Of a stretch of DNA of 31,665 bases, positions 2,574 through 27,835 are shown one piece after another. This DNA is from an archaeon (GTDB taxonomy: Archaea; Nanobdellota; Nanobdellia; Pacearchaeales; GW2011-AR1). Positions within the stretch are counted from its first letter, which is position 1. Every line of letters begins with the position of its first letter. The stretch covers positions 1-31,665 of the forward strand of contig JBAXMY010000001.1 in assembly GCA_037134055.1 (NCBI GenBank), written 5' to 3'. A program made the translations under genes and the position numbers. The notes beneath the pieces are model-generated. The model was not told where the DNA came from and did no database searches. It saw only the letters and a list, made by a program, of their open reading frames with translations.

Positions 2574-3260
2574 ATGAAAAAGAGTGTTCTTCTTGTATGT
2601 ATCATACTTTCTCTTTTAACTCTAAGTCTCTTTTCCAATTTTGCTCATGCAGCTACCACCCCCTCATCTTCCCAAGAGCTGATTTCCAATCAGCTTGGAA
2701 TAGATCCTGCATCCATACCTCAAAGTCCAGAAGACATTAAAGACAAATATCTTAACCAAGAATGGGGGAAAATTATTGACAGCACACCCATAATTGGTCC
2801 AGTTAATATATTTCTAAAAACAAATGACTCCGCCCTATTTGTAGAATACTTCCTTTTTGCTGAAGCATATACTTTCACACTAACGTTCATTCTTATTTTT
2901 GTTTTCTGGCTCTTCGCAATTACATTAACCTCTGACTTGCTGAGAGCTTCTGGATTCCTCAAAGGTGGAGTTTCGCTGTTTGTTGGACTCGGAGTAGCAG
3001 TTATAATCGCACAAATCGGATTACTAAGATTCATCACCTCTGGAATTATCAACTTCATAACTAGGCAAGAAAATGTATGGTGGAGAATAGTTCTCTGGAT
3101 AATCATACTTGTAGCGATCATAGCATTCTACTATCTGAAAAAACTTATAGCAGATTACCTACTTAAGGCAAGAACTGAAGATCAGAAAGCATCCGTAGAA
3201 AGAAGGGTGAAGAAAATCGAGATAACTGAGGAAAGTCAGAAAAAAGCAGAGAAATTATAA
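2574..3260 (+). CDS. Membrane protein: signal peptide, short external domain, three TM helices, charged tail
   Basis: 228-aa ORF beginning MKKSV...FAHA; hydrophobic segments in the C-terminal half. Confidence 0.85.
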   Translation: MKKSVLLVCIILSLLTLSLFSNFAHAATTPSSSQELISNQLGIDPASIPQSPEDIKDKYLNQEWGKIIDSTPIIGPVNIFLKTNDSALFVEYFLFAEAYTFTLTFILIFVFWLFAITLTSDLLRASGFLKGGVSLFVGLGVAVIIAQIGLLRFITSGIINFITRQENVWWRIVLWIIILVAIIAFYYLKKLIADYLLKARTEDQKASVERRVKKIEITEESQKKAEKL

Positions 3261-5262: not shown

Positions 5263-6270
5263 CTAGAACAGTGTCCTCTGCGCACCTTGCTTTTTTAATT
5301 CCCTCAACTTTTCCAATTGCTTTTCCACTCTTTCCAGAGAAAACTCATGTCTATCAACAAGAATTTCCTTTACCTTCGCCTCATTAATATTGGGAAACTC
5401 GACTTGCAATTTTCTATCCACATTGGGCTTCTTGAATATCTCAAATATATCCTGCCAATTGAAATCCATTCTACCTTCAACTTCCTTGAAAATGGAGAAG
5501 GGATATTTTTTCTGCTGTACCAAAGACAGAGCCTTCTTTGGTCCTATTCCCCTCACTCCTCCAGGATTGAAGTCCGTTCCAACGAGAATTGCCAGACAGA
5601 TTAGCTGATCGCTATCAATTCGTAGTTCATTCAATACTTTTTCATATTCTATTATCTCTGGAGAAATGTATATCGTTCCCGAACGCGTTTTCCTTGTCCT
5701 AGATAGAGTCACATTCTGAATAAGACGAGAACCAATAACCAGCGCATCATAATCCTGCGAAGCTACGGCATATGCCTGTCCATCCTGCACAAGTGCAGAT
5801 GCCTGCATTTCTCCTTCTCCAGGAGCTTGCACAACTGCAATACCCAACGCCTCAAGTAATTCCTTACTCTCGGCAATCATTACACTATCAAGCCTGCTCA
5901 GAGAAGCACCATACTTACCCATGGCATCCACATCTTCCTCATCCTTTGCCTCTTCATACTTCTCACGCATTGCCGCTCTTGCCTCTTGGCGCATTTCCTG
6001 CGTCTTTCCCTTCAGAGGATTATACGCTCCATCAAATACATAAATTAATTTTATTCCCTCAGCAAGCAAAGCCATATTCCTATAGAAAAGTCCTGACAGA
6101 TGACTTGTTACCCTACCCTGAGAATCCATCAACGATGTGCCGTCTGCCTGTCTTATTGAAGAAAGAAACTGATATAGCGCATTAAATGCATCTACAGCAA
6201 TCGTCTTTCCCTTTAATTCCTTAAACTCTATTGCCTTCCTAGGAACAATGTCTCCTATCTGTAAGCCCAT
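5263..6270 (-). CDS. fen: Flap endonuclease 1
   Basis: MGLQIGDI start, AVDAFNALYQFLSSIRQADG, VFDG, EGEMQA, SQDYDAL, LVGTDFNPGG H3TH, C-terminal QRTLF. TATAAATA at -29 supports ATG 6270. Confidence 0.97.
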   Translation of the reverse strand: MGLQIGDIVPRKAIEFKELKGKTIAVDAFNALYQFLSSIRQADGTSLMDSQGRVTSHLSGLFYRNMALLAEGIKLIYVFDGAYNPLKGKTQEMRQEARAAMREKYEEAKDEEDVDAMGKYGASLSRLDSVMIAESKELLEALGIAVVQAPGEGEMQASALVQDGQAYAVASQDYDALVIGSRLIQNVTLSRTRKTRSGTIYISPEIIEYEKVLNELRIDSDQLICLAILVGTDFNPGGVRGIGPKKALSLVQQKKYPFSIFKEVEGRMDFNWQDIFEIFKKPNVDRKLQVEFPNINEAKVKEILVDRHEFSLERVEKQLEKLRELKKQGAQRTLF

Positions 6271-6291
6271 TACTATATAGGACAACCAGGT

Positions 6292-6299
6292 TATTTATA
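6292..6299 (-). promoter_or_regulatory. TATA box for fen, overlapping the upstream stop codon
   Basis: TATAAATA at -29..-22 from ATG 6270. Confidence 0.75.
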
Positions 6300-7266
6300 G
6301 CTTATGAGCCTTTCTTGAACGCCAGAAATAGAAAAATCCTGCAATTAGGCATGCAACAATCAGAACGATGTAGCTTCCCCCGGTATTTGACGCATCAGAC
6401 ACTACAAACCCAGTAAAATTGCCCATAAAAAACAACAAAGAAAAAGAAACAAAGAAGATTGCAGCCGTAGCAGCAATTTTCTCCAAACCCTGTCGTTTAG
6501 TACTTGTTTGCTCCCTTCTTTCAGGCATGCCATAAATGGGATCCGCTCTAAAATATCTATATCTCAGCTCCTTATCAGACATTTCAAATAATTCGGGGAG
6601 TTTTACCTTTGACAAATCCAGTTTTGATGCGTATTTGTAAGGCCTATAATGGATAAGCATCCTATTTCGCACATCCACATCTTCCTCAAAACCCATCGCA
6701 CGTGCAACATCTGAAAGTTGTTCTGCCAATTTTTCATTTCCACCCTTTCTTGCCTCACCCACCGTCTTTAAAAGAACACGATATTTATTTCTGATAAATG
6801 AAGAGCCACGTTCATTCAAAACCTTACCGAGAGAGTCATAAACTCTATCGAATGAGGGCTCACCATTCGGAAATAGTTTCTTTCTTTTTTCTTCAGGTAA
6901 TCCTAGATAAGCTATTTTTCTCCCAACAAATCCCAGAAACTCTTCAGAATGAAGTTCCTTAGTATTGATATAATGCCCAAGATTACCTACTTTCTTTGCT
7001 CTGACAAAATGTGCCAGCTCTTCACCCATTGATTCCGTAACATCTCCAACACCCATTTCACGATTAACTGCAATTCTATTCTTTACCATGTTGTAGTCCA
7101 TTACTTTTTTCTTACTAAACACCAATTTTGGAAACTGATTCTCTGGAATGCCAAATTCCTGGGAAAATATTGCTTTCTGTTCATCATACACCCTTTGGAC
7201 AAATGCCTTGCCTTTATTATTTAACTTAGAAATTGGCTTACTGCCTTTAATAAAATCTTCTTCCAT
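6295..7266 (-). CDS. EExxH zincin-like domain protein with C-terminal two-TM tail
   Basis: E82-E-L-A-H86, S-E-E109-F, H206-x-x-x-Y210; homologous by eye to the C-terminus of 9931..13689. Tail: LEKIAA...GNFTGFVV...FFYFWR. TATTTATA at -29. Confidence 0.85.
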   Translation of the reverse strand: MEEDFIKGSKPISKLNNKGKAFVQRVYDEQKAIFSQEFGIPENQFPKLVFSKKKVMDYNMVKNRIAVNREMGVGDVTESMGEELAHFVRAKKVGNLGHYINTKELHSEEFLGFVGRKIAYLGLPEEKRKKLFPNGEPSFDRVYDSLGKVLNERGSSFIRNKYRVLLKTVGEARKGGNEKLAEQLSDVARAMGFEEDVDVRNRMLIHYRPYKYASKLDLSKVKLPELFEMSDKELRYRYFRADPIYGMPERREQTSTKRQGLEKIAATAAIFFVSFSLLFFMGNFTGFVVSDASNTGGSYIVLIVACLIAGFFYFWRSRKAHKL

Positions 7267-7321
7267 CTAATCAATAGATAAAAGCAATATAAATATGTTT
7301 TCTAAATAGAATGATAATTAT

Positions 7322-7864
7322 TTAATTTCCTACAGAATTATAAAAATCAAAAACACCCTGTTCAACTCTGCCTGAAGGCACTTTCTTAACAACAACATCT
7401 GGAGACAGAACGATTTCACCAGCCAATTTACTCCGCCCATGTAATATTGCAACTGGAGCATTCTTTGTTGAAGCGCGATAATCTTCAAACATTTTAAGAA
7501 GTTCTGCCACATTATTTGCAACATACCCGGATAGAGCACAACTGTCATCAGAACGCACATCCTCCATGTATGGATGTCTTGAATCTTGATAGAACCTAGA
7601 TTTTGGCATGCTCTCTCCCCTTTTCATGGGCATGAATGAAGCATAAAATATCTGATTCTCCCTCGTATAGTCGGAAGGACCTTTGTGTCCTTCATATCTT
7701 ATAACAACATTTCTTTCACCAGCTTCCAAAGCTTGTCTTGCAAAATAGTCCGATATAACATCACTAAAGAAAAATTTTACGCCATGACTTCTGCCAGTCT
7801 GATCTGGTGCTTCCAGTTTACTTGGCTTGCCTTCTCTTGATCTTTTTGATTTGCCCTTGGTCAT
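7322..7864 (-). CDS. Hypothetical soluble protein
   Basis: 180-aa ORF, ATG 1 nt after the upstream stop; no motif recognised. Confidence 0.75.
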   Translation of the reverse strand: MTKGKSKRSREGKPSKLEAPDQTGRSHGVKFFFSDVISDYFARQALEAGERNVVIRYEGHKGPSDYTRENQIFYASFMPMKRGESMPKSRFYQDSRHPYMEDVRSDDSCALSGYVANNVAELLKMFEDYRASTKNAPVAILHGRSKLAGEIVLSPDVVVKKVPSGRVEQGVFDFYNSVGN

Positions 7865-7865
7865 T

Positions 7866-8399
7866 TTATTTTAATCCGTCAAACTGAGCAATGAAATCTC
7901 TCAGTGACTTCCCATTTAATATTTCTTCTAAAAATTCTTGAGGAACTTCATCTTCTTCCAACTCACCAATCATTATTCTTCTAAAAGAAGGATCTCCGAC
8001 CATGGCTCTAACAACAGTTTTAGCTTTATATTTATCAAATTTTCCAGATTCCAGAGCCCTGAGCCTTTCCCCCACATCAACTAGAGAAGCAACCTCAATC
8101 ATCGCACCCATCTCTGAAGTTGATCCTGGAGTTTTACCATTTTCATATATTTTCAAGAATTCCTTTGAAACGAAAGGCTTAACACGATCCTTAAATCCAG
8201 CTAATACTTCAGATTTATCTGGAAGTTCAAATGTTTTTAGAACATCTTCCCTATATCTGTGTCCAACTGGAAGTTTCGAAGCTCGATCTAATCGTTCATA
8301 GATGTAATCCGCATTCTGCATACCCTTCTGAGAACATCGATATACAACTCTAGGGCTCAATACCTTACTATCTACCAAATCTAACAATTCAGTTGTCAT
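7866..8399 (-). CDS. Hypothetical soluble, acidic, helical protein
   Basis: 177-aa ORF, ATG 1 nt after the upstream stop; no motif recognised. Confidence 0.75.
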   Translation of the reverse strand: MTTELLDLVDSKVLSPRVVYRCSQKGMQNADYIYERLDRASKLPVGHRYREDVLKTFELPDKSEVLAGFKDRVKPFVSKEFLKIYENGKTPGSTSEMGAMIEVASLVDVGERLRALESGKFDKYKAKTVVRAMVGDPSFRRIMIGELEEDEVPQEFLEEILNGKSLRDFIAQFDGLK

Positions 8400-8400
8400 T

Positions 8401-8652
8401 CTAGTTATGTCTCCTGTCTTTTCTGTTCAATTCGGCAAGAGTTGCGGAAGCAATTATTGCAGAACCGAGAGTTGCAATTTCATAAAAACTACCCATTCCC
8501 CTATGATTATATACATTGCCAATGGAATACTTTGCACCTTCAACGGGAGAAGAGTCTCTAATCGTATTAACCACCCTAACTGCCAAATCTACCGTTCCGC
8601 AAGCTATGCTAAGGCCTATAACCGTTGCAGCCAATGTTTTTCCTAGTCCCAT
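8401..8652 (-). CDS. Small protein with two hydrophobic helices (paralog of 8778..9038)
   Basis: 83 aa; GTVDLAVRVVN...YNHRG; AGGA 5 nt before the ATG and TTTAAATA further upstream. Confidence 0.75.
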   Translation of the reverse strand: MGLGKTLAATVIGLSIACGTVDLAVRVVNTIRDSSPVEGAKYSIGNVYNHRGMGSFYEIATLGSAIIASATLAELNRKDRRHN

Positions 8653-8777
8653 GTTTTTCCTATAAAAATCTCACTAAATGCCAATATTTAAACCTTTCTA
8701 ATTGTTACCACCACGGAGTAACATGATATATGAATATTATTAAATTGGATAAAAAATATAAAAAATTAAAGAATCGT

Positions 8778-9038
8778 TCAGTATTCCCTCTTTTTGCTTG
8801 TAGCATTGATGGCAATACTTGCACCCGCAACTGCAGTAATCAAACTAAGTCCATTTCCATGAAGACCTTCATGCTTGTATGGGTTCAAAGAAGCCTTTTC
8901 CCTGAATTCCTCAGCCGGCATTTCATATCTATGGGCATGATCCTGAACCATGTTGTAGGTCCTTACTCCCAGGTCGATTGTACCAGTTGCTAGCACATAT
9001 CCTAGAGCGCCTATTGCGATGTTTTGTAGTGTGTTCAT
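8778..9038 (-). CDS. Small protein with two hydrophobic helices (paralog of 8401..8652)
   Basis: The track start at 9080 is TTG. ATG 9038 (MNTLQ) follows AGGAGG at 9058-9053 and aligns with the paralog: GTIDLGVRTYN...YKHEG. Confidence 0.75.
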   Translation of the reverse strand: MNTLQNIAIGALGYVLATGTIDLGVRTYNMVQDHAHRYEMPAEEFREKASLNPYKHEGLHGNGLSLITAVAGASIAINATSKKREY

Positions 9039-9173
9039 TGTCTTTTTTTCATCCTCCTTTCTACTTCTCCCAGGTGACAAAGATAGATGTTAATTTACCC
9101 TAAAATATAAGGGTATCACATGTAAAACCTATACCTCCTCGGCCCTGGAAAGGTCCAATAAACACCAACAAAC

Positions 9174-9181
9174 TATAAAAA
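9174..9181 (+). promoter_or_regulatory. TATA box for the pilin-like / giant-protein operon
   Basis: AAAC-TATAAAAA lies at -29..-22 from ATG 9203, not from 9188. Confidence 0.7.
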
Positions 9182-9202
9182 TCCAAAATGCCCATAGAAT
9201 GT

Positions 9203-9934
9203 ATGAATAAACAAGGTCAGATAGCTATTTTTGTTATTGTTGCCATAGCCGTCGTCATTATAATTATGGGCCTCTTCCTATTTGTGAATCGAGGACCTTC
9301 TACAAATGCGTCCTTGTCTTCAGATACCTCAAAAGTCAAAGAATATGTACAACAATGTATTAATCAAAGACAAATTGACGCCATCAGGATTGTTGGATTG
9401 CAGGGAGGATATATAGTTCTACCTGACAACTATTTAGATACGGGGCTCTACCAAGTTGCCTATGGACAATCTTTGGGCCAAAATACTCTTCCTTCAAAAG
9501 AAAAAATTGCCAGAGAAATATCATCCTACATTGAGTATACGTCCCCTGGATGCATAAATCAAGATAAATTTTTCACAATGGATATATCGCCCGGAGAAGC
9601 AAATGTAAACACAACAATAAGCAACGGAAAAATAACTTCCAGAATGATATTTCCAATATCTGTCACAAAGGAAAACTCCACTTCAATTGTTGGAGCAAAT
9701 TATGAATCCACTGTTAATGTTAGATTCGACGAAATTTACTCTTTCGCACAGGGGATTGTCAAAAAACAGATTGCTGATTCTAAATATATCGATATGACCT
9801 ATCTTTCCAGTTCAAAGTTTAAAGTGGGCATCGTACCATTTGATAATAAAACTACTACTTTTACGATAATTGATGATTCCTCTAGGATTGAAAATATATC
9901 CTATTCCTTCCAATTTGCGAGCGTGATAAAATGA
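9203..9934 (+). CDS. Type IV pilin-like (class III signal peptide) surface protein
   Basis: MNKQG/QIAIFVIVAIAVVIIIMGLFLF followed by a helical then beta-rich body with two Cys; ATGA overlap with the next gene. Confidence 0.7.
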   Translation: MNKQGQIAIFVIVAIAVVIIIMGLFLFVNRGPSTNASLSSDTSKVKEYVQQCINQRQIDAIRIVGLQGGYIVLPDNYLDTGLYQVAYGQSLGQNTLPSKEKIAREISSYIEYTSPGCINQDKFFTMDISPGEANVNTTISNGKITSRMIFPISVTKENSTSIVGANYESTVNVRFDEIYSFAQGIVKKQIADSKYIDMTYLSSSKFKVGIVPFDNKTTTFTIIDDSSRIENISYSFQFASVIK

Positions 9935-12900
9935 TAATGAAAAATAAATTCTTAGTGATATCATCCATTTTCATATTTATAATAATCGTTCAGATTGGCA
10001 TAATGAGCGCAGCAACAACTAGTACAACTCCAGACCCACAAACTACACCTTCAACTCAACAAACTTCTGCAACACAAACAAAAACAACTTCGAATGCAGA
10101 TGACACAATTGTTCCTGAAGGATATACTAAAAAAGGAGACCTCTACGAATGCAGGGGTGCCAAAGACCCGTTAGTATTAAATGGCATCAAGGTTTATGCT
10201 GAAAAGGGGAGCACCATCAAGTATTCAAAGGGAAATTTTGAGATTACTGGAAAAATAAATCAGATAGAATCTGGAAAAACAGTTCTAAAAGATATAACTG
10301 ATGCACAGCTGCAGATAGTATCTAATGAAATCGTCATGGCATCATTCACTGCCGCAGAGAAAGGAGATTACTCTTTTAATTACAACGCACAAGATTTTAA
10401 GTTCTCAGTTGACAAAGGCGGCAAAGTGTATTTCAACCCAAGGGTAAATGAAATTGGAGGAAAAGATACCTCTTTTGATTTCACGAATGCCAATAAAGAA
10501 ACTCAGTCCTTCAAATCTTCTGGAAACTTTGCAGCCAAACTGGAAAATGGAAGAGTGTCCAGAGCAGCCACTGATAGTGGAAGAATTGAATTTACAGACA
10601 GTAGTGGGAAAAAATATTCAGCTCAAGACATATACTTTGATGGAAAACAAGATCTTTCACAAACAAAGGGCTCTGCCATTTCAATAAACGGAAATGAAAT
10701 CCTCTTTAAAGGAATGGCGAGGTTAGATGGCACAGAATCATCTAAGATAAGTTACTCTGGTTTAAGCTCAGATATGTTGACAAAATATGATTCAGAAAAG
10801 AATTCATTTGAATGTGCCCAGGGAAATGCAAAGATTACAAATACGGGAAAGGAATTTCTTCTTGAAAACGGACAGATTAAAACACCAACTGGAGAACCAT
10901 CTAAAGATATCAAAGAAATGCAATTGGCCTATGCAACAAAATCCACTCCAAGCCAGAATCTGGCAGTTTACAATGATATGGATGGCGTAAAGATATATGC
11001 AGAAAAAGACGGACAAACCAAAGCAGGAATACGAGATGGACAATACATTACTTCATATGGTATTTTCGCAACACAAGAGTCCATGGCCAATTATGGTCAA
11101 CAAGTACTGGATAATCAAAGAAAAATTCTAGAAGATAAAATCTCTTCAGTCAGTAACGTGTTAGATACTAATTATGATGCTCTTTCTCCTTCTGAAAGAA
11201 ATGCTTTGAAATATCAATTAGCTGCTCTATATGCAGAAGGAACAACGGATTTTGATGACTATGGAAAAGAGAAGTATAATCAACTTCAATCATTAACAAA
11301 GGAATTGGCAGCCAGTCCTGAATATTCCTCCCTTGCCTTAGGTTTAGAAAGAAATGCGCAATTTAATCTTGGTAAGTACGAGGATGTCTATGAAAACCTG
11401 CAAGAGAGTATGAAAAACGCAAAGGATGTAGCAACCAGAACACAAGTTGATGCAGACTTCGCCAGATATTATACAGATATGCGAAACCCTAATGCAGACC
11501 CTCCAAAGGCATACACTTATTTGTCCGATGCAGTTCGTTCTGATCCAAACAATAAAGTATTAAAAAATGCCCAAAGACAAATGGCGATTGCACTATTCAA
11601 ATATGATGGCGAAATTGCTCAAAATATGCAAGAACAAGCAGCAAGTTCTTATGAAACTGATCAGCTGGTTACTAGCAATGATGAATATGCGGAAATGTGG
11701 AAAGCACTTTCGCCAACAAACTATAAAATTGGTTTGACTTCGGCATACTTAGCTCTTGGAACAGATTATATGCAGAATAAAGAAATAAACTTTGAGAATT
11801 TCATGAAATCTCAAAGCGAAAACAAACGCGGAGATGATTATGTTTCATATCTATTGGGAAAAAAAGAAAATGGAGATTACAAATATTCTTTTGAGGAAAT
11901 TATAAACTTTAAGCCGAGAGACTACATGGAAGTGCTTGGAGTTTCCTCAGACAAGGCTATTGCAATCCAAAGTTATGTGGCTAACACTCTCCAAACAAAT
12001 AATGGACAATTTATTAAAAGTGGTGGAGCTGGTAAGTTTTCAGCCGATTTCGTGAACGATCTTTCATTTTTAGATAGTTGGGGGGTAAAAGCGTTAGGAG
12101 GTGCTACATCTCCTCTCGCCACTACAGCTACACTTGGCCCAGTAGCCTTAGCTCCTGGAAGTTTTGGGATATCTGCAGCTACCGGATGGAGAGCAATTAC
12201 GGGTGCAAGCGAGATTACTGGTGGAACAACAGTTTCAGAAGCATTGATATCTGGTTTAGCCAGCAGATCAGCTTTGGCAAATGGTGCGATTACTTCAATA
12301 TCTGAAGCTAGCGCTGCGATGAGTAACGCGGGCAAGAGCTTATTGATAACTAAAGCTAGTTTTGGCAGTACGGCCGCAGACCTAACAGTTGGAGCTGCAG
12401 GTCTTGCAGGAGATGTTGGGGTAGGTACCGCTGCAGGTCTTGCTATTCAAGCTACTGTGCCAGGTCCGGCTGGAGAAATGTTGTCTATGCTTGTTGTTCC
12501 GGGACAGATGAAGGGTCTTTCTAAGGAAGGTGCATCCTTGCTTAGTTCTGAACTCAAACAAGAAGCTCGAGCAGGTCTAAAAGATATAATTCCAGGCACA
12601 AAACTCGGCGAGTTTAGTCTAGTTTTCGAAGATGCCTCTGCTGCTGAAAAAATGTTAAAAAATACTAAAATATTCGGCGCTCATACATCAGATCCAATGA
12701 GAGTTTATCAAACTGGTGATATGGAACTTCTTTTGACCGAAATTGCTGGTCAAGATAATGCGCTCTCAGCAAAATTCTATTCTAGGAATCTAGCCAACCT
12801 AGATTCTGTCTCGGGTTTAACAAGTGCAGAAGCGAGAGCTGAAGCATTTACAGCTAGTAGAATGCTTGATGGTCCAAACGGAGAATTGAATCGTGTACTT

Positions 12901-13689
12901 TTCGCACAAGTTACTGATGATGCTGCAGCAACTGCTGAGAGACTTTGGGAACCAATATTATCTAGAGGAGCCGCGCAAGCAGACGCAGTTTCAGTCAAAC
13001 AATTAGGAGTGGAAGGTGAAAAAAGAGTACAAGTGCTATACGAGTTAATGAAGTTACGATTTGCAGAGAAAACTGGTATGCCTGTTGAATCAATGCCTAA
13101 TTTACAGTTTGGTGGGCCAACCGCATATAGTCGAATGAGTCATAGAATGACGATTGATTCAAATCAACCAATGTCAGAGATTGTGGAGAGCTTAGCAGAA
13201 GAGCTTGGACATTCCATACGTTGGGTTAAAAATCCAATCCCATTTAAACCTAGAACTGGAGAAGTTTCTGATGAGTTTGTTGGCTGGATGAGTAGAGAGC
13301 TTGCTTATGAAGATCCATATTTGAGAAAGTTTTTCGTTCGTGAACCTTCGATATCTTACGAATTTAATGGAAAATCGTTTAAAGAACTCATTAGTGGATA
13401 TTCAGAAGAGATAAGATATTTGAAGGGGAAAAAAGTAGAATATACAGAACGTCTATCTGAACCGGACATTTCTCTAGCTGACAAAGTAGATTATGGAAAA
13501 CGATTAAAAGAAACAGAAAAAGACTTAATAGATGAAGTTAGAGGTTTTAACCACGTTATAGGTTATTGGTCTAGTGGTAGTTTGCGTATAACAGACTTAA
13601 GTGCTCAAGATATACGATTATTATACGAAACATCCGGACAAAACTTAGTTTCTAAGTACATTCAACCATATATTAAATATGCAAAATAA
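9931..13689 (+). CDS. 1252-aa exported modular protein with C-terminal EExxH zincin-like domain (polymorphic-toxin-like)
   Basis: Signal peptide, Thr/Gln/Pro linker, beta-rich region, helical TPR-like region, Gly/Ala hydrophobic segment (aa ~717-858), then E1090-E-L-G-H1094, S-D-E1115-F and H1208-x-x-x-Y1212. Confidence 0.85.
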   Translation: MIMKNKFLVISSIFIFIIIVQIGIMSAATTSTTPDPQTTPSTQQTSATQTKTTSNADDTIVPEGYTKKGDLYECRGAKDPLVLNGIKVYAEKGSTIKYSKGNFEITGKINQIESGKTVLKDITDAQLQIVSNEIVMASFTAAEKGDYSFNYNAQDFKFSVDKGGKVYFNPRVNEIGGKDTSFDFTNANKETQSFKSSGNFAAKLENGRVSRAATDSGRIEFTDSSGKKYSAQDIYFDGKQDLSQTKGSAISINGNEILFKGMARLDGTESSKISYSGLSSDMLTKYDSEKNSFECAQGNAKITNTGKEFLLENGQIKTPTGEPSKDIKEMQLAYATKSTPSQNLAVYNDMDGVKIYAEKDGQTKAGIRDGQYITSYGIFATQESMANYGQQVLDNQRKILEDKISSVSNVLDTNYDALSPSERNALKYQLAALYAEGTTDFDDYGKEKYNQLQSLTKELAASPEYSSLALGLERNAQFNLGKYEDVYENLQESMKNAKDVATRTQVDADFARYYTDMRNPNADPPKAYTYLSDAVRSDPNNKVLKNAQRQMAIALFKYDGEIAQNMQEQAASSYETDQLVTSNDEYAEMWKALSPTNYKIGLTSAYLALGTDYMQNKEINFENFMKSQSENKRGDDYVSYLLGKKENGDYKYSFEEIINFKPRDYMEVLGVSSDKAIAIQSYVANTLQTNNGQFIKSGGAGKFSADFVNDLSFLDSWGVKALGGATSPLATTATLGPVALAPGSFGISAATGWRAITGASEITGGTTVSEALISGLASRSALANGAITSISEASAAMSNAGKSLLITKASFGSTAADLTVGAAGLAGDVGVGTAAGLAIQATVPGPAGEMLSMLVVPGQMKGLSKEGASLLSSELKQEARAGLKDIIPGTKLGEFSLVFEDASAAEKMLKNTKIFGAHTSDPMRVYQTGDMELLLTEIAGQDNALSAKFYSRNLANLDSVSGLTSAEARAEAFTASRMLDGPNGELNRVLFAQVTDDAAATAERLWEPILSRGAAQADAVSVKQLGVEGEKRVQVLYELMKLRFAEKTGMPVESMPNLQFGGPTAYSRMSHRMTIDSNQPMSEIVESLAEELGHSIRWVKNPIPFKPRTGEVSDEFVGWMSRELAYEDPYLRKFFVREPSISYEFNGKSFKELISGYSEEIRYLKGKKVEYTERLSEPDISLADKVDYGKRLKETEKDLIDEVRGFNHVIGYWSSGSLRITDLSAQDIRLLYETSGQNLVSKYIQPYIKYAK

Positions 13690-13743: not shown

Positions 13744-16140
13744 ATGACGAGCATTAAAGGATTCATTGTGCAGGCAGACTATCAGATAATTGACGACAAA
13801 ACCTATGTACAACTATTTGGAAGACTGGAAAATGGCCAATCATTTGCCACAGTCAACAAAGTCAAGCCATACATGTTCATAGCTGAGAAAGAACTAAAGA
13901 AAGCCAACAAACTTCTCAGCAAATATGAAACAGAAAAAACCTCGTTGAAAACATTCGCAGGGGAAAAAGTCATAAAAATAAGTCATGACCTTCAAGCAGA
14001 GCTAGGAAAACTAGCATCCGCACTTCACAAACTTGATATTCCAACCTATGAATCGGATATCAAGCCACATACGCGATTCATAATTGACCAGGACCTTTTA
14101 GGAAGCCTAGAAATTCAAGGCGAATACGACCCTTCTGAGAAAGTCGACCGCGTCTATAGGGAAGCTAAAATCAAGCAAAGTGATTACAAACCAAATTTGA
14201 AAACTCTATCCCTGGATATAGAAACTGACGGGCAGACAAAGAAACTTCTCTGCATCGGCTTGTATGCACCAGGATATAAGCAAACATTTATGATTACCAA
14301 CCAAAAACTGCGGGAAACCGTTTCATGCAAGAATGAAACCGACTGCCTTCTCAAGTTTAAAGAAGCAATAAACAAATTTGATCCAGACATTATCACCGGA
14401 TGGAATGTCATTGACTTTGATATGAAGTACCTACAAGATTTATTCAAAGAAAATAGAATTCCGTTTGACATTGGAAGAACGAATGCAGAAGCCAAGACAA
14501 GAATTGAAGATAACTTCTTCCGTTCTTCAAGTATGGACATTCCTGGAAGAATGGTCCTTGATGGATTGAATATGATAAAAGACCCATTCATCAAAGAAGC
14601 CCCATCAATAAAAAATGCAGAATTCGAATCCTATAAATTAGAAGATGTCGCCCAGGAAATTCTAGGAAAAGGAAAGATTCTCAAAGGAAAGGGAAGACAC
14701 GATGAAATCTCTCAGCTCTATAAAAAAGACCAGCAAAAACTTGTTGACTACAACATGAAAGACTGTGAACTAGCCTATGAAATTCTTGAAAAAACAAAGA
14801 TGATTGACCTGGCAATAGAGCGTTCGCAATTGGTGGGCCTAGAATTAGACAGGCTAACTGCTTCCATTGCCGCATTCGACTCCCTGTATATAAGAGAAGC
14901 AAGGAAACACGGCTTAGTCTCTCCAAGCACAGTATACGGACAAAAAGATGAACGTCTCAAGGGAGGATATGTCTTTTCTAGCAAGGCAGGAATATTCCGT
15001 AATGTCCTAGTCCTAGACTTCAAATCCCTATACCCTTCAATTATCTGCACATTTAACATAGATCCGGCAGCTCACATTAAAAATAAAAAAGAACTGAAGA
15101 AAGAAAAAGATCCCGTAGAATCTCCAAATAAGGAATATTTCAAGAACCAGGAAGGCATTTTGCCAGGAATAATTGGCAAACTTCATTTTGCAAGAGAAAA
15201 AGCAAAGCAAGAAAAACGAGAACTCTCCAGCTACGCAATAAAAATAATCATGAACTCATTCTGGGGTGTTCTTGCTTCACCAAACTGCAGATATTTCGAT
15301 TTCAACATGGCCAGCTCCATTACGGCATTCGCAAGATGGGCAATCCAAGATACGGCGAAGGAAATTGAAAAATTAGGGTATAAAGTAATTTACAGTGATA
15401 CGGATTCCGTATTCATAGAAACTGGCCTTGACAAAGAAAAGGCAGGCAAACTTGGATATGAAATACAGAATACAATCAATAAGTTCTACCATGACTACGT
15501 GCAGAAGCATTTCAAGAGAAAATCTTTCCTGGAATTGCAATTTGAAAAACACTTCCTCTCTTTAATGATTCCAGGTGTGAGAATGAAGCCAGCAAAGAAG
15601 AAAGCAAGCAAAGAAAAGGAAGAGCCGGAGAAAGAAGTAGAAAAGGTAGCTGCAAAGAAGCGTTACGCCGGACTTCTTTGGAAAAATGGAAAAGAAGAAC
15701 TGCAAATTACTGGCCTGGAAGCAATAAGAGGAGATTGGACAGAAGCCGCGCAGGAATTCCAGAAGGAATTATTGATGAAAACATTCCACAATGAACCTGT
15801 TGAGAAGTTTATTGCGCAATATGTAAAAGACATTCGTGCAGGCAAGATGGATAAACTTCTCATTTACAGAAAATCAATTAGAAAAAATCTGGCAGAATAC
15901 ACGAAGATGACTCCCCCACACGTAAAAGCAGCCCGTCTACTTGATGTATTAGATTCAAATGTAATAGAATACTATATCACAACATCAGGTCCAGAACCAA
16001 TTCAAAAACACACTCACCCTCTGGATTATGACCATTACATAACTAAGCAAATCGCCCCAATTGCCAATCAAGTTCTCTCATTGCTAGGAAAATCCTTTGA
16101 GGATTTATCACAGCCAACTAAACAGGCTAAATTGTTCTAA
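13744..16140 (+). CDS. polB: Family B DNA polymerase, bacterial Pol II-like, with proofreading exonuclease
   Basis: ExoI DIET, ExoII WNVIDFD, ExoIII YNMKD; pol motifs DFKSLYPS, KIIMNSFWG, YSDTDS, KKRYAG; Pol II-like GLEAIRGDWT, PPHVKAAR and GPEP...LDYDHY; C-terminal QAKLF. Confidence 0.97.
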   Translation: MTSIKGFIVQADYQIIDDKTYVQLFGRLENGQSFATVNKVKPYMFIAEKELKKANKLLSKYETEKTSLKTFAGEKVIKISHDLQAELGKLASALHKLDIPTYESDIKPHTRFIIDQDLLGSLEIQGEYDPSEKVDRVYREAKIKQSDYKPNLKTLSLDIETDGQTKKLLCIGLYAPGYKQTFMITNQKLRETVSCKNETDCLLKFKEAINKFDPDIITGWNVIDFDMKYLQDLFKENRIPFDIGRTNAEAKTRIEDNFFRSSSMDIPGRMVLDGLNMIKDPFIKEAPSIKNAEFESYKLEDVAQEILGKGKILKGKGRHDEISQLYKKDQQKLVDYNMKDCELAYEILEKTKMIDLAIERSQLVGLELDRLTASIAAFDSLYIREARKHGLVSPSTVYGQKDERLKGGYVFSSKAGIFRNVLVLDFKSLYPSIICTFNIDPAAHIKNKKELKKEKDPVESPNKEYFKNQEGILPGIIGKLHFAREKAKQEKRELSSYAIKIIMNSFWGVLASPNCRYFDFNMASSITAFARWAIQDTAKEIEKLGYKVIYSDTDSVFIETGLDKEKAGKLGYEIQNTINKFYHDYVQKHFKRKSFLELQFEKHFLSLMIPGVRMKPAKKKASKEKEEPEKEVEKVAAKKRYAGLLWKNGKEELQITGLEAIRGDWTEAAQEFQKELLMKTFHNEPVEKFIAQYVKDIRAGKMDKLLIYRKSIRKNLAEYTKMTPPHVKAARLLDVLDSNVIEYYITTSGPEPIQKHTHPLDYDHYITKQIAPIANQVLSLLGKSFEDLSQPTKQAKLF

Positions 16141-20129: not shown

Positions 20130-21004
20130 TTATTTCCTTTTGAAATAGATAAAACTAGCTATCAAACCAATTGTAAATAAAATTCCGCCTGTCAAATTAC
20201 TCGATGTTTGATTTAAACTGGCAATTACATTACCAGTTATATTTGAAGATAAAAAAAATAAACCTGCGATGAGTCCTGTAACGGCAATTATAGAAAGAAA
20301 GTGAGATGCTAAATTTGCATTTTTCATTCCCACCTTGCGCTTTCTTTCATCTATCGCCTCTTTCATTCTTCTAACTTGTAACAAACCACTGTCTATTCTT
20401 TTTTCTAGTTTTTCATTCTCTTTTCTTCCATCTGCAGTTTGTGGTAAAAGATTAATCGTGTTTATAGCATGTTCATAGCAGTATAGCGCTTTGTTAAGGC
20501 GTCCTTGATCCATGTAACGTTCTCCAGCATAACAATAGAAGCCTGGTGTAGATTGGCTTTTTTTCATTTCGAGTCTTTGGGCTTCGACGAGGTCGTTATC
20601 CGCACCTTTTGTTTTTTCGAGTTTTTCAAGAATTCTTCTAAAGAAACCTTTTTGTATCCCAACTAGCTCATCCGAACTACTGACATTATACGTAGGATTA
20701 GCACTGTCTAAATCATGGTAGCTATGCCTTCTATGTTCTGCTCTTCGAAGCTCTCTTCCAAGTTTTTGTCTGTCATAAAGGTTCAATTCCTGCGGGTCAA
20801 TTGATTTTAAATGGTTCACGGCATTATCTGTAAACTCTTGTGAAAAATATGGCATATCTTTGGCCTCTTTAATTAATTTCCTAACTCGAGGAGATAACCT
20901 TTTTTCTTTTTTATTCATCTCTTTTATAGCAATCATCGATTTAAATTCTTTTGCAAGCGCGCCGTCGGGTGGGGGTTGGTAAATACTGAGCCAGCCATAA
21001 ATTC
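20073..21004. repeat. Inverted repeats flanking the 20130 gene
   Basis: GAATTTATGGCTGGC (20073-20087) and its exact reverse complement (20990-21004); GACGGCGC (20105-20112) and GCGCCGTC (20959-20966); GGGTGGGGG present as a direct repeat at 20097 and 20967. Confidence 0.85.
20130..20918 (-). CDS. Helical (TPR-like) protein with C-terminal two-TM NITGNVI tail
   Basis: AATTTAAA at -29 favours ATG 20918 (MNKKEK). YAGERYMDQGRLNKALYCYEHAI is TPR-like. The tail resembles that of 6295..7266. Confidence 0.85.
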   Translation of the reverse strand: MNKKEKRLSPRVRKLIKEAKDMPYFSQEFTDNAVNHLKSIDPQELNLYDRQKLGRELRRAEHRRHSYHDLDSANPTYNVSSSDELVGIQKGFFRRILEKLEKTKGADNDLVEAQRLEMKKSQSTPGFYCYAGERYMDQGRLNKALYCYEHAINTINLLPQTADGRKENEKLEKRIDSGLLQVRRMKEAIDERKRKVGMKNANLASHFLSIIAVTGLIAGLFFLSSNITGNVIASLNQTSSNLTGGILFTIGLIASFIYFKRK

Positions 21005-25151: not shown

Positions 25152-25511
25152 ATGGAAATGAAAGGGTTAATTTTTGTAAATGGACTCACGCGAGAGATAA
25201 TTGAAGCAAAATTAACAGAGGCAGGAATAAAATATCGAATTCGTGAGAATAAAAGAAGAAATCCATTTGTTAGAGATACTGACATAGAACCTGGAGAGCT
25301 AGTCTACCCGCCATTAATTCGGGAAGAAAGAGATAAACTTGATAGAGAGATAACTAGCCTGTTTGGATTCCCAGAAAGATATCAAAATGGAGACAAATTC
25401 TATTACGGATTCTACAAAATAACCCCAAAGTTCGATAGAACACAATTAGAAGGAAAAATTTCATTTAGAGAGGGATTATTAATGGAAAGAATACACTTTT
25501 ATCCGGCATAA
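25152..25511 (+). CDS. Hypothetical protein
   Basis: 119 aa, ATG 1 nt after the upstream stop; overlaps the convergent cdc48 3' end by 13 nt. Confidence 0.65.
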   Translation: MEMKGLIFVNGLTREIIEAKLTEAGIKYRIRENKRRNPFVRDTDIEPGELVYPPLIREERDKLDREITSLFGFPERYQNGDKFYYGFYKITPKFDRTQLEGKISFREGLLMERIHFYPA

Positions 25512-27835
25512 ATTGGACCCGTTTCCAATCCGGCCTTTGCCTGCTTAAGATATAAATCTTCCATCTTCTTATACATTTTTGCCGTGTCTGGAGACACCGA
25601 TGGCTTTGACTTCTTCAATGCTTCCTCAAAGTCCTCTCTTGATACCACCTTTGCTGTGCCATCTTTTCTCAATGCATTCAATGAAGCTTCTCTCACAAGT
25701 CCTTCAATGTCAGCTCCAACAAATCCCTCTGTTATTTTTACAAGCTCAGCCACATCAACATCCTTGTCAATTGGCGTATTTTTCATATGCACATCAAATA
25801 TTGCTCTCCTACTTCTTTCATCTGGAACATCCACTAAAATAATTCTGTCAAATCTTCCAGGTCGAAGTAATGCGGGATCCAGCATGTCCGGTCTATTTGT
25901 CGCACCAATTATTGTTACGTCCTTCAAACCCTCCAGGCCATCTATTTCCGCAAGCAATTGATTCAAAACACGTTCAGTAACCTTCTGTCCATTATCTCCA
26001 CCTCTTCTTCCAGCCATCGAATCTATCTCATCAAAGAAGATTATGCAAGGAGCAACCTGTCTTGCTCTTTCAAACACTTTCCTAACTCCCTCTTCGGATT
26101 TTCCAACCCACATGCTCAACAAGCTAGGTCCCTTAATGTGAATAAAGTTAGCTTCGCTTTCCTTTGCCACAGCTTTAGCAAGCATCGTCTTACCAGTTCC
26201 AGTAGGACCGTATAGAAGAATTCCTCTTGGTGGGCGTATTCCCAATCTCTTGAATCCTTCAGGATTTTTAAGTGGCCATTCAACTGCTTCCTTTAGACTT
26301 TGTTTTGTTTCTTCAAGTCCTCCAATATCATCCCAACCCACATTTGGCGTTTCGACAAGCACCTCGCGCATTGCACTTGGTCTGACCACACGCAGAGCAT
26401 CATCAAAATCTTCTGCCTTTACAATTATCTTATCAAGAATCTCTTTAGGAATCGCTTCCTCATCATTTATCTTCAAACTTGGCAACAATTTTCTTAGAAC
26501 TGCCATTGCCGCTTCTTTTGTAAGTGCATTCAAATCTGCTCCGACAAAACCATGTGTCTTTCCAGCGAGCATATCTAAATTAACACTCTTGTCCAAGGGC
26601 ATTGTTCTCGTATGAATCTTAAGAATATTTAATCTTCCTGGCTTGTCTGGCACACTAATTTCAACTTCCCTATCAAATCTTCCAGGTCTTCTTAATGCAG
26701 GATCAATTGAATTGACTCTGTTCGTCGCTCCAATTACAACTATCTTTCCCCTACTCTTCAAACCATCCATCATTGTAAGCAATTGGGATACCACACGTCG
26801 TTCAACTTCTCCAGTTACATCTTCCCTCTTTGGAGCAATTGCATCAATCTCGTCAATAAATATAATTGAAGGAGCATTCTTCTCCGCATCTTCAAAAATG
26901 TCCCTAACTTTTTTCTCACTTTCCCCATAGAACTTGCTCATAATTTCTGGTCCATTCAAAAGAATAAAATGCGCAGAAGTTTCATTTGCAACTGCTTTAG
27001 CAAGCAAAGTCTTACCAGTTCCCGGAGGTCCATGAAGAATAACTCCCTTTGGTGGTTCAATACCTAGCTTGTCAAATATCTCTGGATGTTTCAAAGGCAA
27101 TTCAACCATTTCTCTTATTTTTTTAACTTCTTCTGTCAATCCACCAATATCTTCATAGGTTACATCTGGAGCGCTATCTTCAGATATATCTACTGCCTTG
27201 GGATTAAGTATAACTTCAGTATTTTCATTGATTATGCATGCCTGCCCTGGCGAGGTTGAAATAACCATAAACTTAATTTGCTGGAATCCTGAAAAACCCA
27301 TTCCCGCACCGCCAAACAAATCATTCATATCTCCAAAGAAGTCTGGCAATCCTTCACTCATCAAATCTCTTCTTCTCTGTACTCCACCGAGAGAAAGCAC
27401 ATCTCCCTTTGTAACCACACGACCAAGAAGTCCGTTCTTAAACATTTCAGGATCTCCCTGAACCATTATATTTTTCTGCGCAGGAGCAATTCCCACTTTC
27501 TTTGCAGCAACAATCTCTCCCTTTCTAACCAAAACTGCTTCTCCAACTCCAGTCTTTGCATTCTTTCTTATCAGTCCATCAATTCTAATTATTCCCTCAC
27601 CCACGTCCGCAGGATAGGCACGATCAACAATCACTGAAGTTTCCCGGTCACCCTTAACAACAATGATGTCCCCCCTATTCAATCCTAGAGCTTTCATTAC
27701 CTGAGGATCAATTCTTGCAATTCCCTTATATGCATCATCCTGCAATGCCTCGACTACCTTAAGCTTTACTTCTTTTATCTTTCCGTTCTTACTCTCTTTG
27801 CCATTATCTTTTTCGTCTTCTTTTCTATCTGCCAT
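25499..27835 (-). CDS. cdc48: Cdc48/p97/VAT AAA+ ATPase
   Basis: N domain; D1 GPPGTGKT / IDE / ATNR / RRPGRFD; D2 GPTGTGKT / FDE / ATNR / LRPGRFD. Confidence 0.97.

What the first reader, a model, noticed from the sequence alone, without database searches (positions are those of the whole stretch)
6553..13689. One EExxH zincin-like domain in two different delivery formats
aa 19-120 of the 323-aa protein align with aa ~1029-1127 of the 1252-aa protein at about 28 identities per 100 residues by eye: G...VQ..Y...K..F....G.P....P.L.F...Y....R...ES..EEL.H..R...S.EF.G...R..AY. Similarity continues through EPS, HxxxY and L.E.S...L...Y. The conserved core (EELxH, a Glu 21-23 residues later, a distal His/Tyr) looks like a gluzincin HExxH..E site with the first His replaced by Glu. 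Conservation is concentrated on the would-be catalytic residues, which argues for an active enzyme family I cannot name.
Basis: partly seen in the sequence, partly recalled or inferred. Interest (0 to 1): 0.85.

Follow-up and report, generated by a model that had tools for sequence, protein, structure and literature searches.

The report
Unnamed EExxH zinc-protease-like enzyme family
Two genes of an ultra-small (DPANN) archaeon share a protease-like domain whose first metal-binding histidine is always a glutamate, and the domain belongs to an unnamed enzyme family found so far only in ultra-small archaea and bacteria.

Summary
The 323-aa protein (6295-7266, minus) and the C-terminus of the 1252-aa protein (9931-13689, plus) share a ~240-residue domain: BLASTP 28% identity, E 2e-10. 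A family profile built without either protein scores them 2.6e-44 and 3.9e-8.

The zincin reading also holds. Both AlphaFold models are confident (pLDDT 92 and 88). Both show helix, three strands, EExxH helix, then Glu helix. All long structural matches are thermolysin-type gluzincins (M3, M1, M4, M2, M32, M13), with Z about 10.

An exhaustive search found 92 cluster representatives and no Pfam, NCBIfam or PDB sequence match. In 89 aligned members the key residues are near-invariant: E82, E83, H86, R89, E109, H206, Y210. None has His at position 82. Every host identified is a DPANN archaeon or a CPR bacterium. The family is sparse, in 7 of 401 genomes of the phylum.

"Two delivery formats" is only partly right. 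The small protein has no export signal and a C-terminal two-helix membrane hairpin, so its domain most likely faces the cytoplasm. Only the giant protein has a signal peptide, and its domain copy is the most divergent in the family. No immunity gene follows it.

Substrate and metal are unknown. I could not measure whether the ligands converge.

The parts
6295..7266 (-). Gene for the 323-aa protein (P0001): EExxH domain followed by a C-terminal membrane hairpin
   Evidence: ORF list and translation. The family profile built without it scores E 2.6e-44.
6502..7266 (-). EExxH gluzincin-fold domain of P0001 (aa 1-255)
   Evidence: AF2 model pLDDT 92.2, pTM 0.88, with elements in the order H12-38, E47-51, E57-59, E64-68, H73-92, H102-121, then a helical bundle. 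VIA-align gives Z 8-10 to M3, M1, M4, M2, M32 and M13 gluzincins over about 170-213 residues.
7009..7023 (-). EELAH motif (E82 E83 L A H86), followed by R89 at 7000-7002
   Evidence: Translation. Column counts in the alignment: E82 88/89, E83 88/89, H86 87/88, R89 87/88.
6940..6942 (-). E109, candidate third metal ligand inside the E-F-[FL]-G-x-[LV]-G-R motif on the helix after the EExxH helix
   Evidence: E109 88/89, F110 86/89, G112 89/89. It lies in helix 102-121 of the model.
6637..6651 (-). H206-Y-R-P-Y210, distal His/Tyr pair in the C-terminal helical subdomain
   Evidence: H206 84/85 and Y210 85/86. Translation.
6313..6483 (-). C-terminal two-helix membrane hairpin with an N-F-T-G-F-V loop motif (the 'TG-hairpin' tail), aa 262-318
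   Evidence: Hydropathy peaks at aa 264-282 and 296-314. Basic residues flank both ends. The same tail is on 43 of 93 family proteins and on at least five other proteins of this genome.
9931..13689 (+). Gene for the 1252-aa protein (P0002): signal peptide, about 690-aa orphan region, Gly/Ala/Ser/Thr-rich segment, linker, EExxH domain at the extreme C-terminus
   Evidence: Translation. No homologue of the N-terminal 1000 residues was found. The start ATG overlaps the stop of the upstream gene as ATGA.
9931..10011 (+). Signal-peptide-like N-terminus (MIMKNK, 19 hydrophobic residues, MSA)
   Evidence: Hydropathy 2.0-2.8 over aa 1-29. The database gene call (P0096, 1228 aa) starts at Met25 and omits it.
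12079..12510 (+). Gly/Ala/Ser/Thr-rich, weakly hydrophobic segment (aa 717-860)
   Evidence: Kyte-Doolittle maximum 1.3 over 19 residues, below the value of a typical membrane helix, with scattered charges. Role unknown.
12943..13686 (+). EExxH gluzincin-fold domain of P0002 (aa 1005-1252)
   Evidence: AF2 model of aa 985-1252: pLDDT 87.6, pTM 0.81, same order of elements. Its long VIA alignments are all to gluzincins or gluzincin-like folds: 3o0y, 3iuk, 3u24, ERAP1, F3, oligoendopeptidase F, thermolysin. Family HMM E 3.9e-8. Longest branch in the family tree, 3.77 against a median of 0.82.
13198..13212 (+). EELGH motif (E1090 E1091 L G H1094), followed by R1097 at 13219-13221
13273..13275 (+). 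E1115 in SDEFVGW, counterpart of E109
13552..13566 (+). H1208-V-I-G-Y1212, probable counterpart of H206/Y210 (the alignment is ambiguous)
   Evidence: Pairwise MAFFT alignment and translation. A4 and the HMM alignment place RGF 1204-1206 on the family RGY instead.
5263..6285 (-). FEN1 flap endonuclease immediately downstream of P0001 (10-bp gap, same strand)
   Evidence: Pfam XPG_N and XPG_I. FEN1 is adjacent to, or one gene from, the EExxH gene in 4 of 9 archaeal loci that have enough flank.
9188..9934 (+). 248-aa protein with an N-terminal membrane helix, translationally coupled to P0002
   Evidence: ORF and ATGA overlap. No family match.

Best explanation
Both proteins carry a member of an undescribed family of gluzincin-fold metallohydrolases, most likely peptidases. 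In this family the metal site is Glu-His-Glu: E82 and H86 on the active-site helix and E109 on the next helix. It replaces the canonical His-His-Glu site. E83 is the general base. H206 and Y210 in the helical subdomain would stabilise the transition state, as His and Tyr do in thermolysin-type enzymes. The His-to-Glu change is fixed in the whole family, so it is a functional variant and not decay. By analogy with ZIP8/ZIP14 it may shift metal preference away from Zn towards Mn or Fe, but that step is inference only. P0001 is the typical archaeal form: no export signal, with the domain held at the cytoplasmic face of the membrane by a modular C-terminal two-helix hairpin. P0002 is an atypical, fast-evolving copy fused to the C-terminus of a giant signal-peptide protein. 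There the domain would act outside the cell, either on the protein that carries it (self-processing) or on surface or host material. Shown: homology, fold, residue conservation, domain architectures, taxonomic range. Inferred: metal binding, catalysis, membrane topology, substrate.
For: Homology. Family: 92 representatives in an exhaustive HMM search of 1.84 billion proteins, and EExxH or EExxxH in essentially all of them. Fold: AF2 pLDDT 92.2 and 87.6. The order N-terminal helix, three strands, motif helix, Glu helix matches the published definition of the zincin core (PMC5512222). VIA-align against 48,161 PDB chains gives gluzincins as the top 29 hits for P0001 (Z 7.6-10.2, 160-213 residues aligned), and the same families give every long alignment for P0002. 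Foldseek against PDB, AFDB and the ESM Atlas returns mostly zincin families: ArdC, IrrE, selecase, SprT, M48, DUF6782, DUF885, MATCAP, M1. hhalign against 29 DPANN HtpX sequences is weak (probability 2.7%) but aligns GEEigH on aHElsH in register. In the model H86 lies 6 residues before the end of helix 73-92 and E109 lies 7 after the start of helix 102-121, so in an antiparallel hairpin they sit at the same height (inference). Cytoplasmic orientation: no N-terminal hydrophobic segment, and Lys/Arg on both flanks of the hairpin. Tail-less relatives often start with the amphipathic, basic motif MG[LIV]FxWxKKK. Metal analogy: converting EEXXH of SLC39A8 to HEXXH abolishes Mn transport (PMC10457451).
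Against: No sequence-level link to any characterised peptidase. All Foldseek E-values are above 0.03. Z of about 10 is only moderately above the tool's stated background of 7-8. No substrate is indicated by any conserved neighbour. A Glu/His/Glu site is not documented for a zincin peptidase in the searchable literature. Topology rests on hydropathy and the positive-inside rule only. The distal His/Tyr assignment in P0002 is ambiguous between alignments.
Confidence: 0.6

Rival explanations
1. Delivered toxin or effector. The domain would be a toxic enzyme presented in two ways, at the tip of a giant exported protein and as a membrane-inserted small protein. It would be aimed at host or competitor cells, as in polymorphic toxin systems.
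For: P0002 has a signal peptide, an orphan N-terminal 1000 residues, a Gly/Ala-rich segment and the enzyme domain at the extreme C-terminus. In CPR relatives the domain is fused to an ADP-ribosyltransferase exoenzyme domain (PF03496), in both orders (P0089, P0028 and the L060 protein). The family is patchy, in 7 of 401 genomes of the phylum and 0 of 27 in the same family. It is shared between DPANN and CPR episymbionts. The genes between P0001 and P0002 are orphans.
Against: No immunity-like gene follows P0002, because PolB starts 55 bp downstream. P0001 and about half of the family have no export signal and face the cytoplasm. Their neighbours are housekeeping genes: FEN1, PolB, the RNA polymerase operon, tRNA synthetase, GyrA, FtsH. 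No recurring small partner gene was found in 28 loci. The hairpin tail is a general anchor carried by unrelated proteins.
Confidence: 0.15
2. Self-processing domain. As proposed for zincin-like domains of polyvalent proteins, the domain would cleave the polypeptide that carries it. It would release or mature the giant protein, or the ART moiety in the CPR fusions, and would not act on foreign substrates.
For: Zincin-like metallopeptidase domains are the commonest domain of polyvalent proteins, co-occur with ART domains and are predicted to process the multidomain polypeptide (PMC5512222). The domain here is fused to an ART domain and sits at the end of a 1252-aa protein.
Against: Most family members are single-domain proteins with nothing to process in cis. 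The family matches none of the polyvalent-protein domain models in Pfam. No phage or plasmid context was seen.
Confidence: 0.1
3. DNA-repair-linked protease, in the manner of SprT/Spartan, IrrE/PprI or ArdC.
For: The gene is next to, or one gene from, FEN1 in 4 of 9 archaeal loci, with PolB nearby in 3. In bacteria it is next to or near RuvA in 3 loci, with UvrB in one. The best Foldseek hits for the core (residues 20-135) are ArdC, IrrE/PprI and SprT.
Against: Those Foldseek hits are not significant (E 0.3-1) and cover only the minimal zincin core. No DNA-binding domain was found. Most members are membrane-anchored. In 1-Mb genomes a DNA-metabolism gene within a few genes is expected about half the time (my estimate). 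The FEN1 adjacency may be inherited synteny among related archaea. Other loci show unrelated neighbours.
Confidence: 0.08
4. Catalytically dead pseudo-zincin that serves as a binding or scaffold module.
For: The canonical first metal ligand (His) is missing. No zincin peptidase with EExxH was found in the searchable literature.
Against: The replacement residue and every other catalytic position are 97-100% conserved across 89 sequences that share only about 19% mean column identity. That is the pattern of an active site under selection. Dead homologues usually lose these residues unevenly.
Confidence: 0.07

Closest known systems
Thermolysin-type gluzincins, clan MA(E): M4 thermolysin/LasB, M1 aminopeptidases (tricorn F3, LTA4H, ERAP1), M3 oligoendopeptidase F, M2 ACE, M32, M13
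   Same: Two-subdomain architecture: a beta-containing N-terminal part with the motif helix, a Glu ligand on the next helix, and a helical C-terminal part carrying His/Tyr. Structural Z 7.5-10.2 over 160-213 residues.
   Different: No detectable sequence similarity. The first ligand is Glu, not His. The domain is much smaller (about 240 aa) and has family-specific motifs: EFFGFLGR, HxRGYxFAS, and a C-terminal FFRxDPDYSGL.
Minimal zincins: SprT, IrrE/PprI (M78-like), the ArdC metallopeptidase domain, selecase and other minigluzincins, M48 HtpX
   Same: Core of helix, three strands, motif helix and second helix. These are the best Foldseek matches for residues 20-135. HtpX is likewise a membrane-tethered zincin (that it faces the cytoplasm is from my own knowledge). 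hhalign puts EExxH on its HExxH in register.
   Different: All matches are statistically insignificant. These families have HExxH. HtpX co-occurs with the EExxH gene in 5 of 5 carrier genomes tested, so the new family does not replace it.
Uncharacterised gluzincin-like families: DUF885 (PDB 3o0y, 3iuk, 3u24), DUF6782, Peptidase_MA_2, MATCAP (PF08014)
   Same: Comparable fold, TM 0.45-0.58 and Z 8.6-9.9.
   Different: No HMM match to any of them, and a different motif.
SLC39A8/ZIP8 and SLC39A14/ZIP14 metal transporters (analogy at motif level only)
   Same: EEXXH stands in place of the family's HEXXH metal-binding motif, and changing it back to HEXXH abolishes Mn transport (PMC10457451).
   Different: Unrelated fold and function: a transmembrane transport pathway, not an enzyme. 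It only shows that this swap can retune metal selectivity.
Zincin-like metallopeptidase domains of polyvalent proteins and polymorphic toxins
   Same: The zincin core co-occurs with ART domains and with very large proteins (PMC5512222).
   Different: No mobile-element context, no immunity gene, and most members are single-domain cellular proteins.

Membership tests
Zincin-like metallopeptidase fold (clan MA) | [quoted passage not shown] | tested here: met
   DSSP of both AF2 models. P0001: H12-38, E47-51/57-59/64-68, H73-92, H102-121. P0002 has the same order. Definition read.
Zincin-like metallopeptidase fold (clan MA) | HExxH on the first of the two C-terminal helices | tested here: not met
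   The motif is EExxH in all but a handful of the 92 representatives. Two have EExxxH, one has EExxQ, and none has His at the first position.
Gluzincins | Glu third ligand on the helix that follows the motif helix | tested here: met
   E109 is conserved 88/89 and lies in helix 102-121. P0002 has E1115. This was tested at the level of sequence and secondary structure only.
Gluzincins | The three ligands converge on one metal site, and metal is bound | not testable with these tools
   Model coordinates are not exposed. Complex prediction with Zn was not folded.
Gluzincins | Whole-domain structural similarity to solved members | tested here: met
   VIA-align Z 7.5-10.2 to M3, M1, M4, M2, M32 and M13 over 160-213 residues. 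The first 29 rows are all gluzincins or gluzincin-like folds. The same families give the long alignments for P0002.
Any named sequence family (Pfam-A, NCBIfam, PDB chains) | Profile match above threshold | tested here: not met
   No Pfam or NCBIfam family is matched by more than 2 of 89 members, and all such matches have E above 0.001. The PDB profile search found only RicA at E 0.28.
Polymorphic toxin system | Immunity gene immediately downstream of the toxin gene | tested here: not met
   PolB starts 55 bp after the P0002 stop, with no ORF between. No recurring small neighbour in 28 loci.
Polymorphic toxin system | N-terminal export or presentation region with an exchangeable C-terminal toxin domain | tested here: inconclusive
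   A signal peptide is present. No homologue of the N-terminal region exists to test whether the C-terminal domain is exchanged.
SprT/Spartan or IrrE-type DNA-linked proteases | HExxH with the family-specific third ligand, plus a DNA-binding or sensor domain | tested here: not met
   No such domain or motif. The only resemblance is a weak Foldseek match of the core.

The most novel reading that the evidence does not exclude
The fixed Glu-His-Glu site would make this the first zincin-fold hydrolase family built for a metal other than zinc (Mn or Fe). It would have evolved, and been exchanged, specifically among ultra-small episymbionts (DPANN and CPR) living in anoxic waters. The giant protein P0002 would carry a copy of this enzyme to the cell surface or into the host as part of the symbiont-host interface.
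Probability: 0.12. Interest if true: 0.85.

Novelty: new variant of a known kind. Interest (0 to 1): 0.6.

Why it matters
Zincin metallopeptidases are defined by HExxH. A whole family that keeps the fold and every other catalytic residue, but has replaced the first metal ligand with Glu in all members, tests how far that site can be changed. It also tests whether the change retunes the metal. The family is unnamed in Pfam, NCBIfam and the PDB. In the species-representative genome scan it appeared only in DPANN archaea and CPR bacteria, two groups whose biology is mostly unknown proteins. That makes it a tractable candidate for biochemistry, because the domain is a confidently modelled 240 residues. 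It is also a marker of gene sharing between the two groups. The fusion to a giant exported protein and to ADP-ribosyltransferases gives testable leads about the symbiont cell surface.

Tried and rejected
1. Complex prediction of P0001 aa 1-255 with Zn was counted but not folded, so it gives no evidence either way.
2. The word-indexed homologue searches found only the query proteins themselves. The exhaustive profile search was needed.
3. The search for related loci with the 89-sequence alignment failed for lack of a conserved stretch. A 24-sequence sub-alignment worked.
4. The idea that the family replaces the membrane protease HtpX (M48) came from HtpX not being found in this 68.6%-complete genome. 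I rejected it because 5 of 5 other carrier genomes also have HtpX.
5. The 177-aa and 180-aa genes upstream of P0001 are not conserved partners or inhibitors. No homologue was found in 200 genomes of the order, and none lies near other family members.
6. Peptidase_MA_2 is too rare in the phylum (2 of 151 genomes) to build a comparison profile.
7. hhalign against HtpX gave the right register but no significance (probability 2.7%).
8. The ESM Atlas gave nothing for the first 980 residues of P0002.
9. The YebC-side neighbours in the Peribacteria loci L069 and L070 are not RuvA.
10. A literature search for an EExxH peptidase returned only papers on ZIP8/ZIP14 and other ZIP-family zinc transporters.
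Full report
**Setting.** The window is archaeal. It encodes FEN1 (5263-6285, minus), a family-B DNA polymerase (13744-16140, plus) and CDC48 (25499-27835, minus), at about 38% G+C. The genome held for it is about 1 Mb in 151 contigs and 68.6% complete. The nearest relatives of the 323-aa protein are annotated Candidatus Pacearchaeota and Nanoarchaeia. So this is a DPANN archaeon.

**The observation.** P0001 (6295-7266, minus, 323 aa) and P0002 (9931-13689, plus, 1252 aa) align by BLASTP over P0001 12-120 and P0002 1022-1126. The alignment has 31/109 identities and E 2e-10. I built a family HMM from 87 homologues with both window proteins left out. It scores P0001 at 2.6e-44 and P0002 at 3.9e-8 for a search space of 1.8 billion proteins. 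The genome holds only these two copies.

**The family.** Pfam, NCBIfam and PDB sequence searches found nothing for either protein or for the family alignment. An exhaustive HMMER search of 1.84 billion cluster representatives found 92 proteins at E <= 1e-3, 23 of them at E <= 1e-10.
- Nearly all carry EExxH.
- In the 89-sequence domain alignment A2, mean column identity is 19%, but the following are nearly invariant: E82 88/89, E83 88/89, H86 87/88, R89 87/88, E109 88/89, F110 86/89, G112 89/89, H206 84/85, Y210 85/86.
- No member has His at position 82. Two have a one-residue insertion (EExxxH) and one has EExxQ.
- The replacement of the first His by Glu is therefore a fixed property of the family and not a local decay.

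**Fold.** With A2 as input, AlphaFold2 models P0001 aa 1-255 at pLDDT 92.2 and pTM 0.88. With a reordered alignment (A4), P0002 aa 985-1252 reaches 87.6 and 0.81.
- Both models show an N-terminal helix, three short strands, a long helix carrying EExxH, a second long helix carrying the conserved Glu, and then a helical bundle carrying His/Tyr. This is the published description of the zincin core with a gluzincin Glu (PMC5512222, read).
- A Foldseek-independent comparison with 48,161 PDB chains gives only gluzincins or gluzincin-like folds for the first 29 rows for P0001. They include oligoendopeptidase F (Z 10.2, 213 residues), tricorn F3, puromycin-sensitive aminopeptidase, LTA4 hydrolase, ERAP1, thermolysin, LasB, Dcp, M32 carboxypeptidases, ACE and DUF885.
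- For P0002, a long helical hairpin attracts short coiled-coil matches. Every alignment longer than 160 residues is again to these families.
- Foldseek against PDB, AFDB clusters, Swiss-Prot and the ESM Atlas returns mostly zincin families: ArdC, IrrE/PprI, selecase, SprT, M48, DUF4157, DUF6782, DUF885, MATCAP, M1. None is significant (E >= 0.04), and TM scores are at most 0.58.
- A profile-profile comparison with 29 DPANN HtpX (M48) sequences is weak (probability 2.7%), but it aligns GEEigH on aHElsH in register.
- I conclude that the fold is gluzincin-like and that the family is distant from every described one.
- I could not measure the E82/H86/E109 distances, because coordinates are not returned and the Zn co-folding job was not run. 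From the secondary structure, E82 and H86 are one helical turn apart. H86 is 6 residues from the end of its helix and E109 is 7 from the start of the next. That spacing is the geometry expected of a converging triad, but this is inference.

**Architectures and topology.** Of 93 proteins, 43 have the domain at the N-terminus followed by two hydrophobic helices. Forty-seven end exactly with the domain, often in ...FFRxDPDYSGL, after N-terminal extensions of 0-430 residues without membrane helices. One has the hairpin before the domain.
- The hairpin is itself conserved: LE-K/R, helix, [N/S]-[ILF]-T-G-x-[VI]-[IV], a polar stretch, helix, Lys/Arg.
- Basic residues on both flanks and none in the loop put the loop outside and the enzyme domain inside, by the positive-inside rule (inference).
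- The same tail ends the unrelated TPR protein at 20130-20936 and at least four other proteins of this genome. It is a general anchor module and not a device specific to this enzyme.
- At least eight tail-less members begin with MG[LIV]FxWxKKK, which looks like an amphipathic basic membrane-binding helix.
- The family therefore seems to work at the cytoplasmic face of the membrane.
- P0002 is the exception. It has a signal-peptide-like N-terminus that the database gene call omits by starting at Met25. Its start overlaps the stop of an upstream gene for a protein with an N-terminal membrane helix. About 690 orphan residues follow, then a Gly/Ala/Ser/Thr-rich segment whose hydropathy (maximum 1.3) is below that of a normal membrane helix, and then the domain.
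- In the family tree P0002's domain is by far the longest branch (3.77 against a median of 0.82). P0001 groups with the Pacearchaeota tail-anchored proteins P0003 and P0004. So P0002 is an old or fast-evolving recruit and not a recent duplicate of P0001.

**Distribution and context.** A scan of one genome per prokaryotic species, using the motif EFFGFLGR with tblastn confirmation, found 12 loci. All are in CPR bacteria (Saccharibacteria, Staskawiczbacteria, Nomurabacteria, Peribacteria) or DPANN archaea (Woesearchaeota, Nanoarchaeia).
- Within the window's phylum the family profile hits 7 of 401 genomes, and 0 of 27 in the same family.
- Neighbourhoods are mostly housekeeping genes.
- Two adjacencies recur. 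FEN1 lies next to the gene, or one gene away, in 4 of 9 archaeal loci with adequate flank, with PolB nearby in 3. RuvA lies next to or near the gene in 3 bacterial loci, once together with UvrB.
- In 1-Mb genomes a DNA-metabolism gene within a few genes is common, and the archaeal cases may be inherited synteny. I treat this as a lead only.
- Three CPR proteins fuse the domain to an ADP-ribosyltransferase exoenzyme domain (PF03496), in both orders.
- The genes between P0001 and P0002 (180, 177, 83, 100 and 248 aa) have no family match. The two I tested, 180 and 177 aa, have no homologue in 200 genomes of the order. No small gene recurs beside family members. Nothing lies between P0002 and PolB.

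**Mechanism.** I think the most likely reading is an active metallohydrolase, probably a peptidase, with a Glu-His-Glu metal site, E83 as base and H206/Y210 as transition-state stabilisers. It would be tethered to the inner face of the membrane in P0001 and displayed outside on P0002.
- The metal is open. The only documented parallel for EExxH in place of HExxH that I could find is in ZIP8/ZIP14, where reverting it to HEXXH abolishes Mn transport (PMC10457451). That suggests, but does not show, a shift towards Mn or Fe.
- The toxin/effector reading keeps some weight for P0002 and for the ART fusions. It fails the immunity-gene test and does not fit the bulk of the family.
- Self-processing of the carrier protein, a DNA-repair-linked role and a dead scaffold are lesser rivals.

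**Verdict.** This is a real, previously unnamed family and a new variant of the gluzincin kind. The 'delivery' framing is largely unsupported. I did not test whether it belongs to this family.

Noticed in passing
window 20130-20936 (-) and 6313-6483 (-); genome contigs C10 5623-6042, C13 3822-4340, C31 1775-2398, C44 1896-2579: A conserved C-terminal two-helix tail ends at least six unrelated proteins of this genome and 43 EExxH-family proteins from other DPANN genomes. Its pattern is helix, N-[ILF]-T-G-x-V-I loop, polar Asn/Ser/Thr-rich stretch, helix, Lys/Arg. No NCBIfam or Pfam model matches it. It could be a membrane anchor, a glycosylated loop or a sorting signal.
   Followed up: partly
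window 8401-8652 (-) and 8778-9080 (-): Two small neighbouring genes (83 and 100 aa) are paralogues (BLASTP E 2e-7). They share a hydrophobic segment followed by G-T-[VI]-D-L-x-V-R. No family match.
   Followed up: partly
L060 2649-6816, L010 100-2274, L012 147-1787: In CPR bacteria the EExxH domain is fused to an ADP-ribosyltransferase exoenzyme domain (PF03496), in both orders. In Staskawiczbacteria the fusion gene directly follows uvrB and ruvA.
   Followed up: partly
P0026, P0027, P0030, P0045, P0047, P0082, P0092 (N-termini): Tail-less family members repeatedly begin with MG[LIV]FxW[LK]K[KR][KR], an amphipathic basic N-terminus that may be an alternative way of binding the membrane.
   Followed up: no
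window 2574-3260 (+); L058 8427-9170, L063 3334-4041, L064 8077-8811: A 228-250-aa membrane protein (signal peptide plus several helices) recurs within a few kb of the EExxH gene in four archaeal loci.
   Followed up: no
window 9931-10002: The public gene call for the giant protein (1228 aa) starts at Met25 and drops the signal-peptide-like N-terminus. The longer frame starts at an ATG that overlaps the stop of the upstream gene (ATGA).
   Followed up: partly
whole genome G000: No M48 HtpX gene was found in this genome, although 58 of 61 genomes of the order have one. The genome is only 68.6% complete, so this may be an assembly gap.
   Followed up: partly
L066 5893-6845; L048 (G443:C8): In a Peribacteraceae genome the EExxH gene is split into two ORFs. 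In one Nanoarchaeota genome the match contains a TAA stop. These may be pseudogenes or sequencing errors.
   Followed up: no
window 7322-8399 (-): The 180-aa and 177-aa genes packed between P0001 and the small paralogues have no family match and no homologue in 200 genomes of the order. The stretch from 7322 to 13689 looks like a lineage-specific insert between the otherwise syntenic FEN1 and PolB genes.
   Followed up: partly
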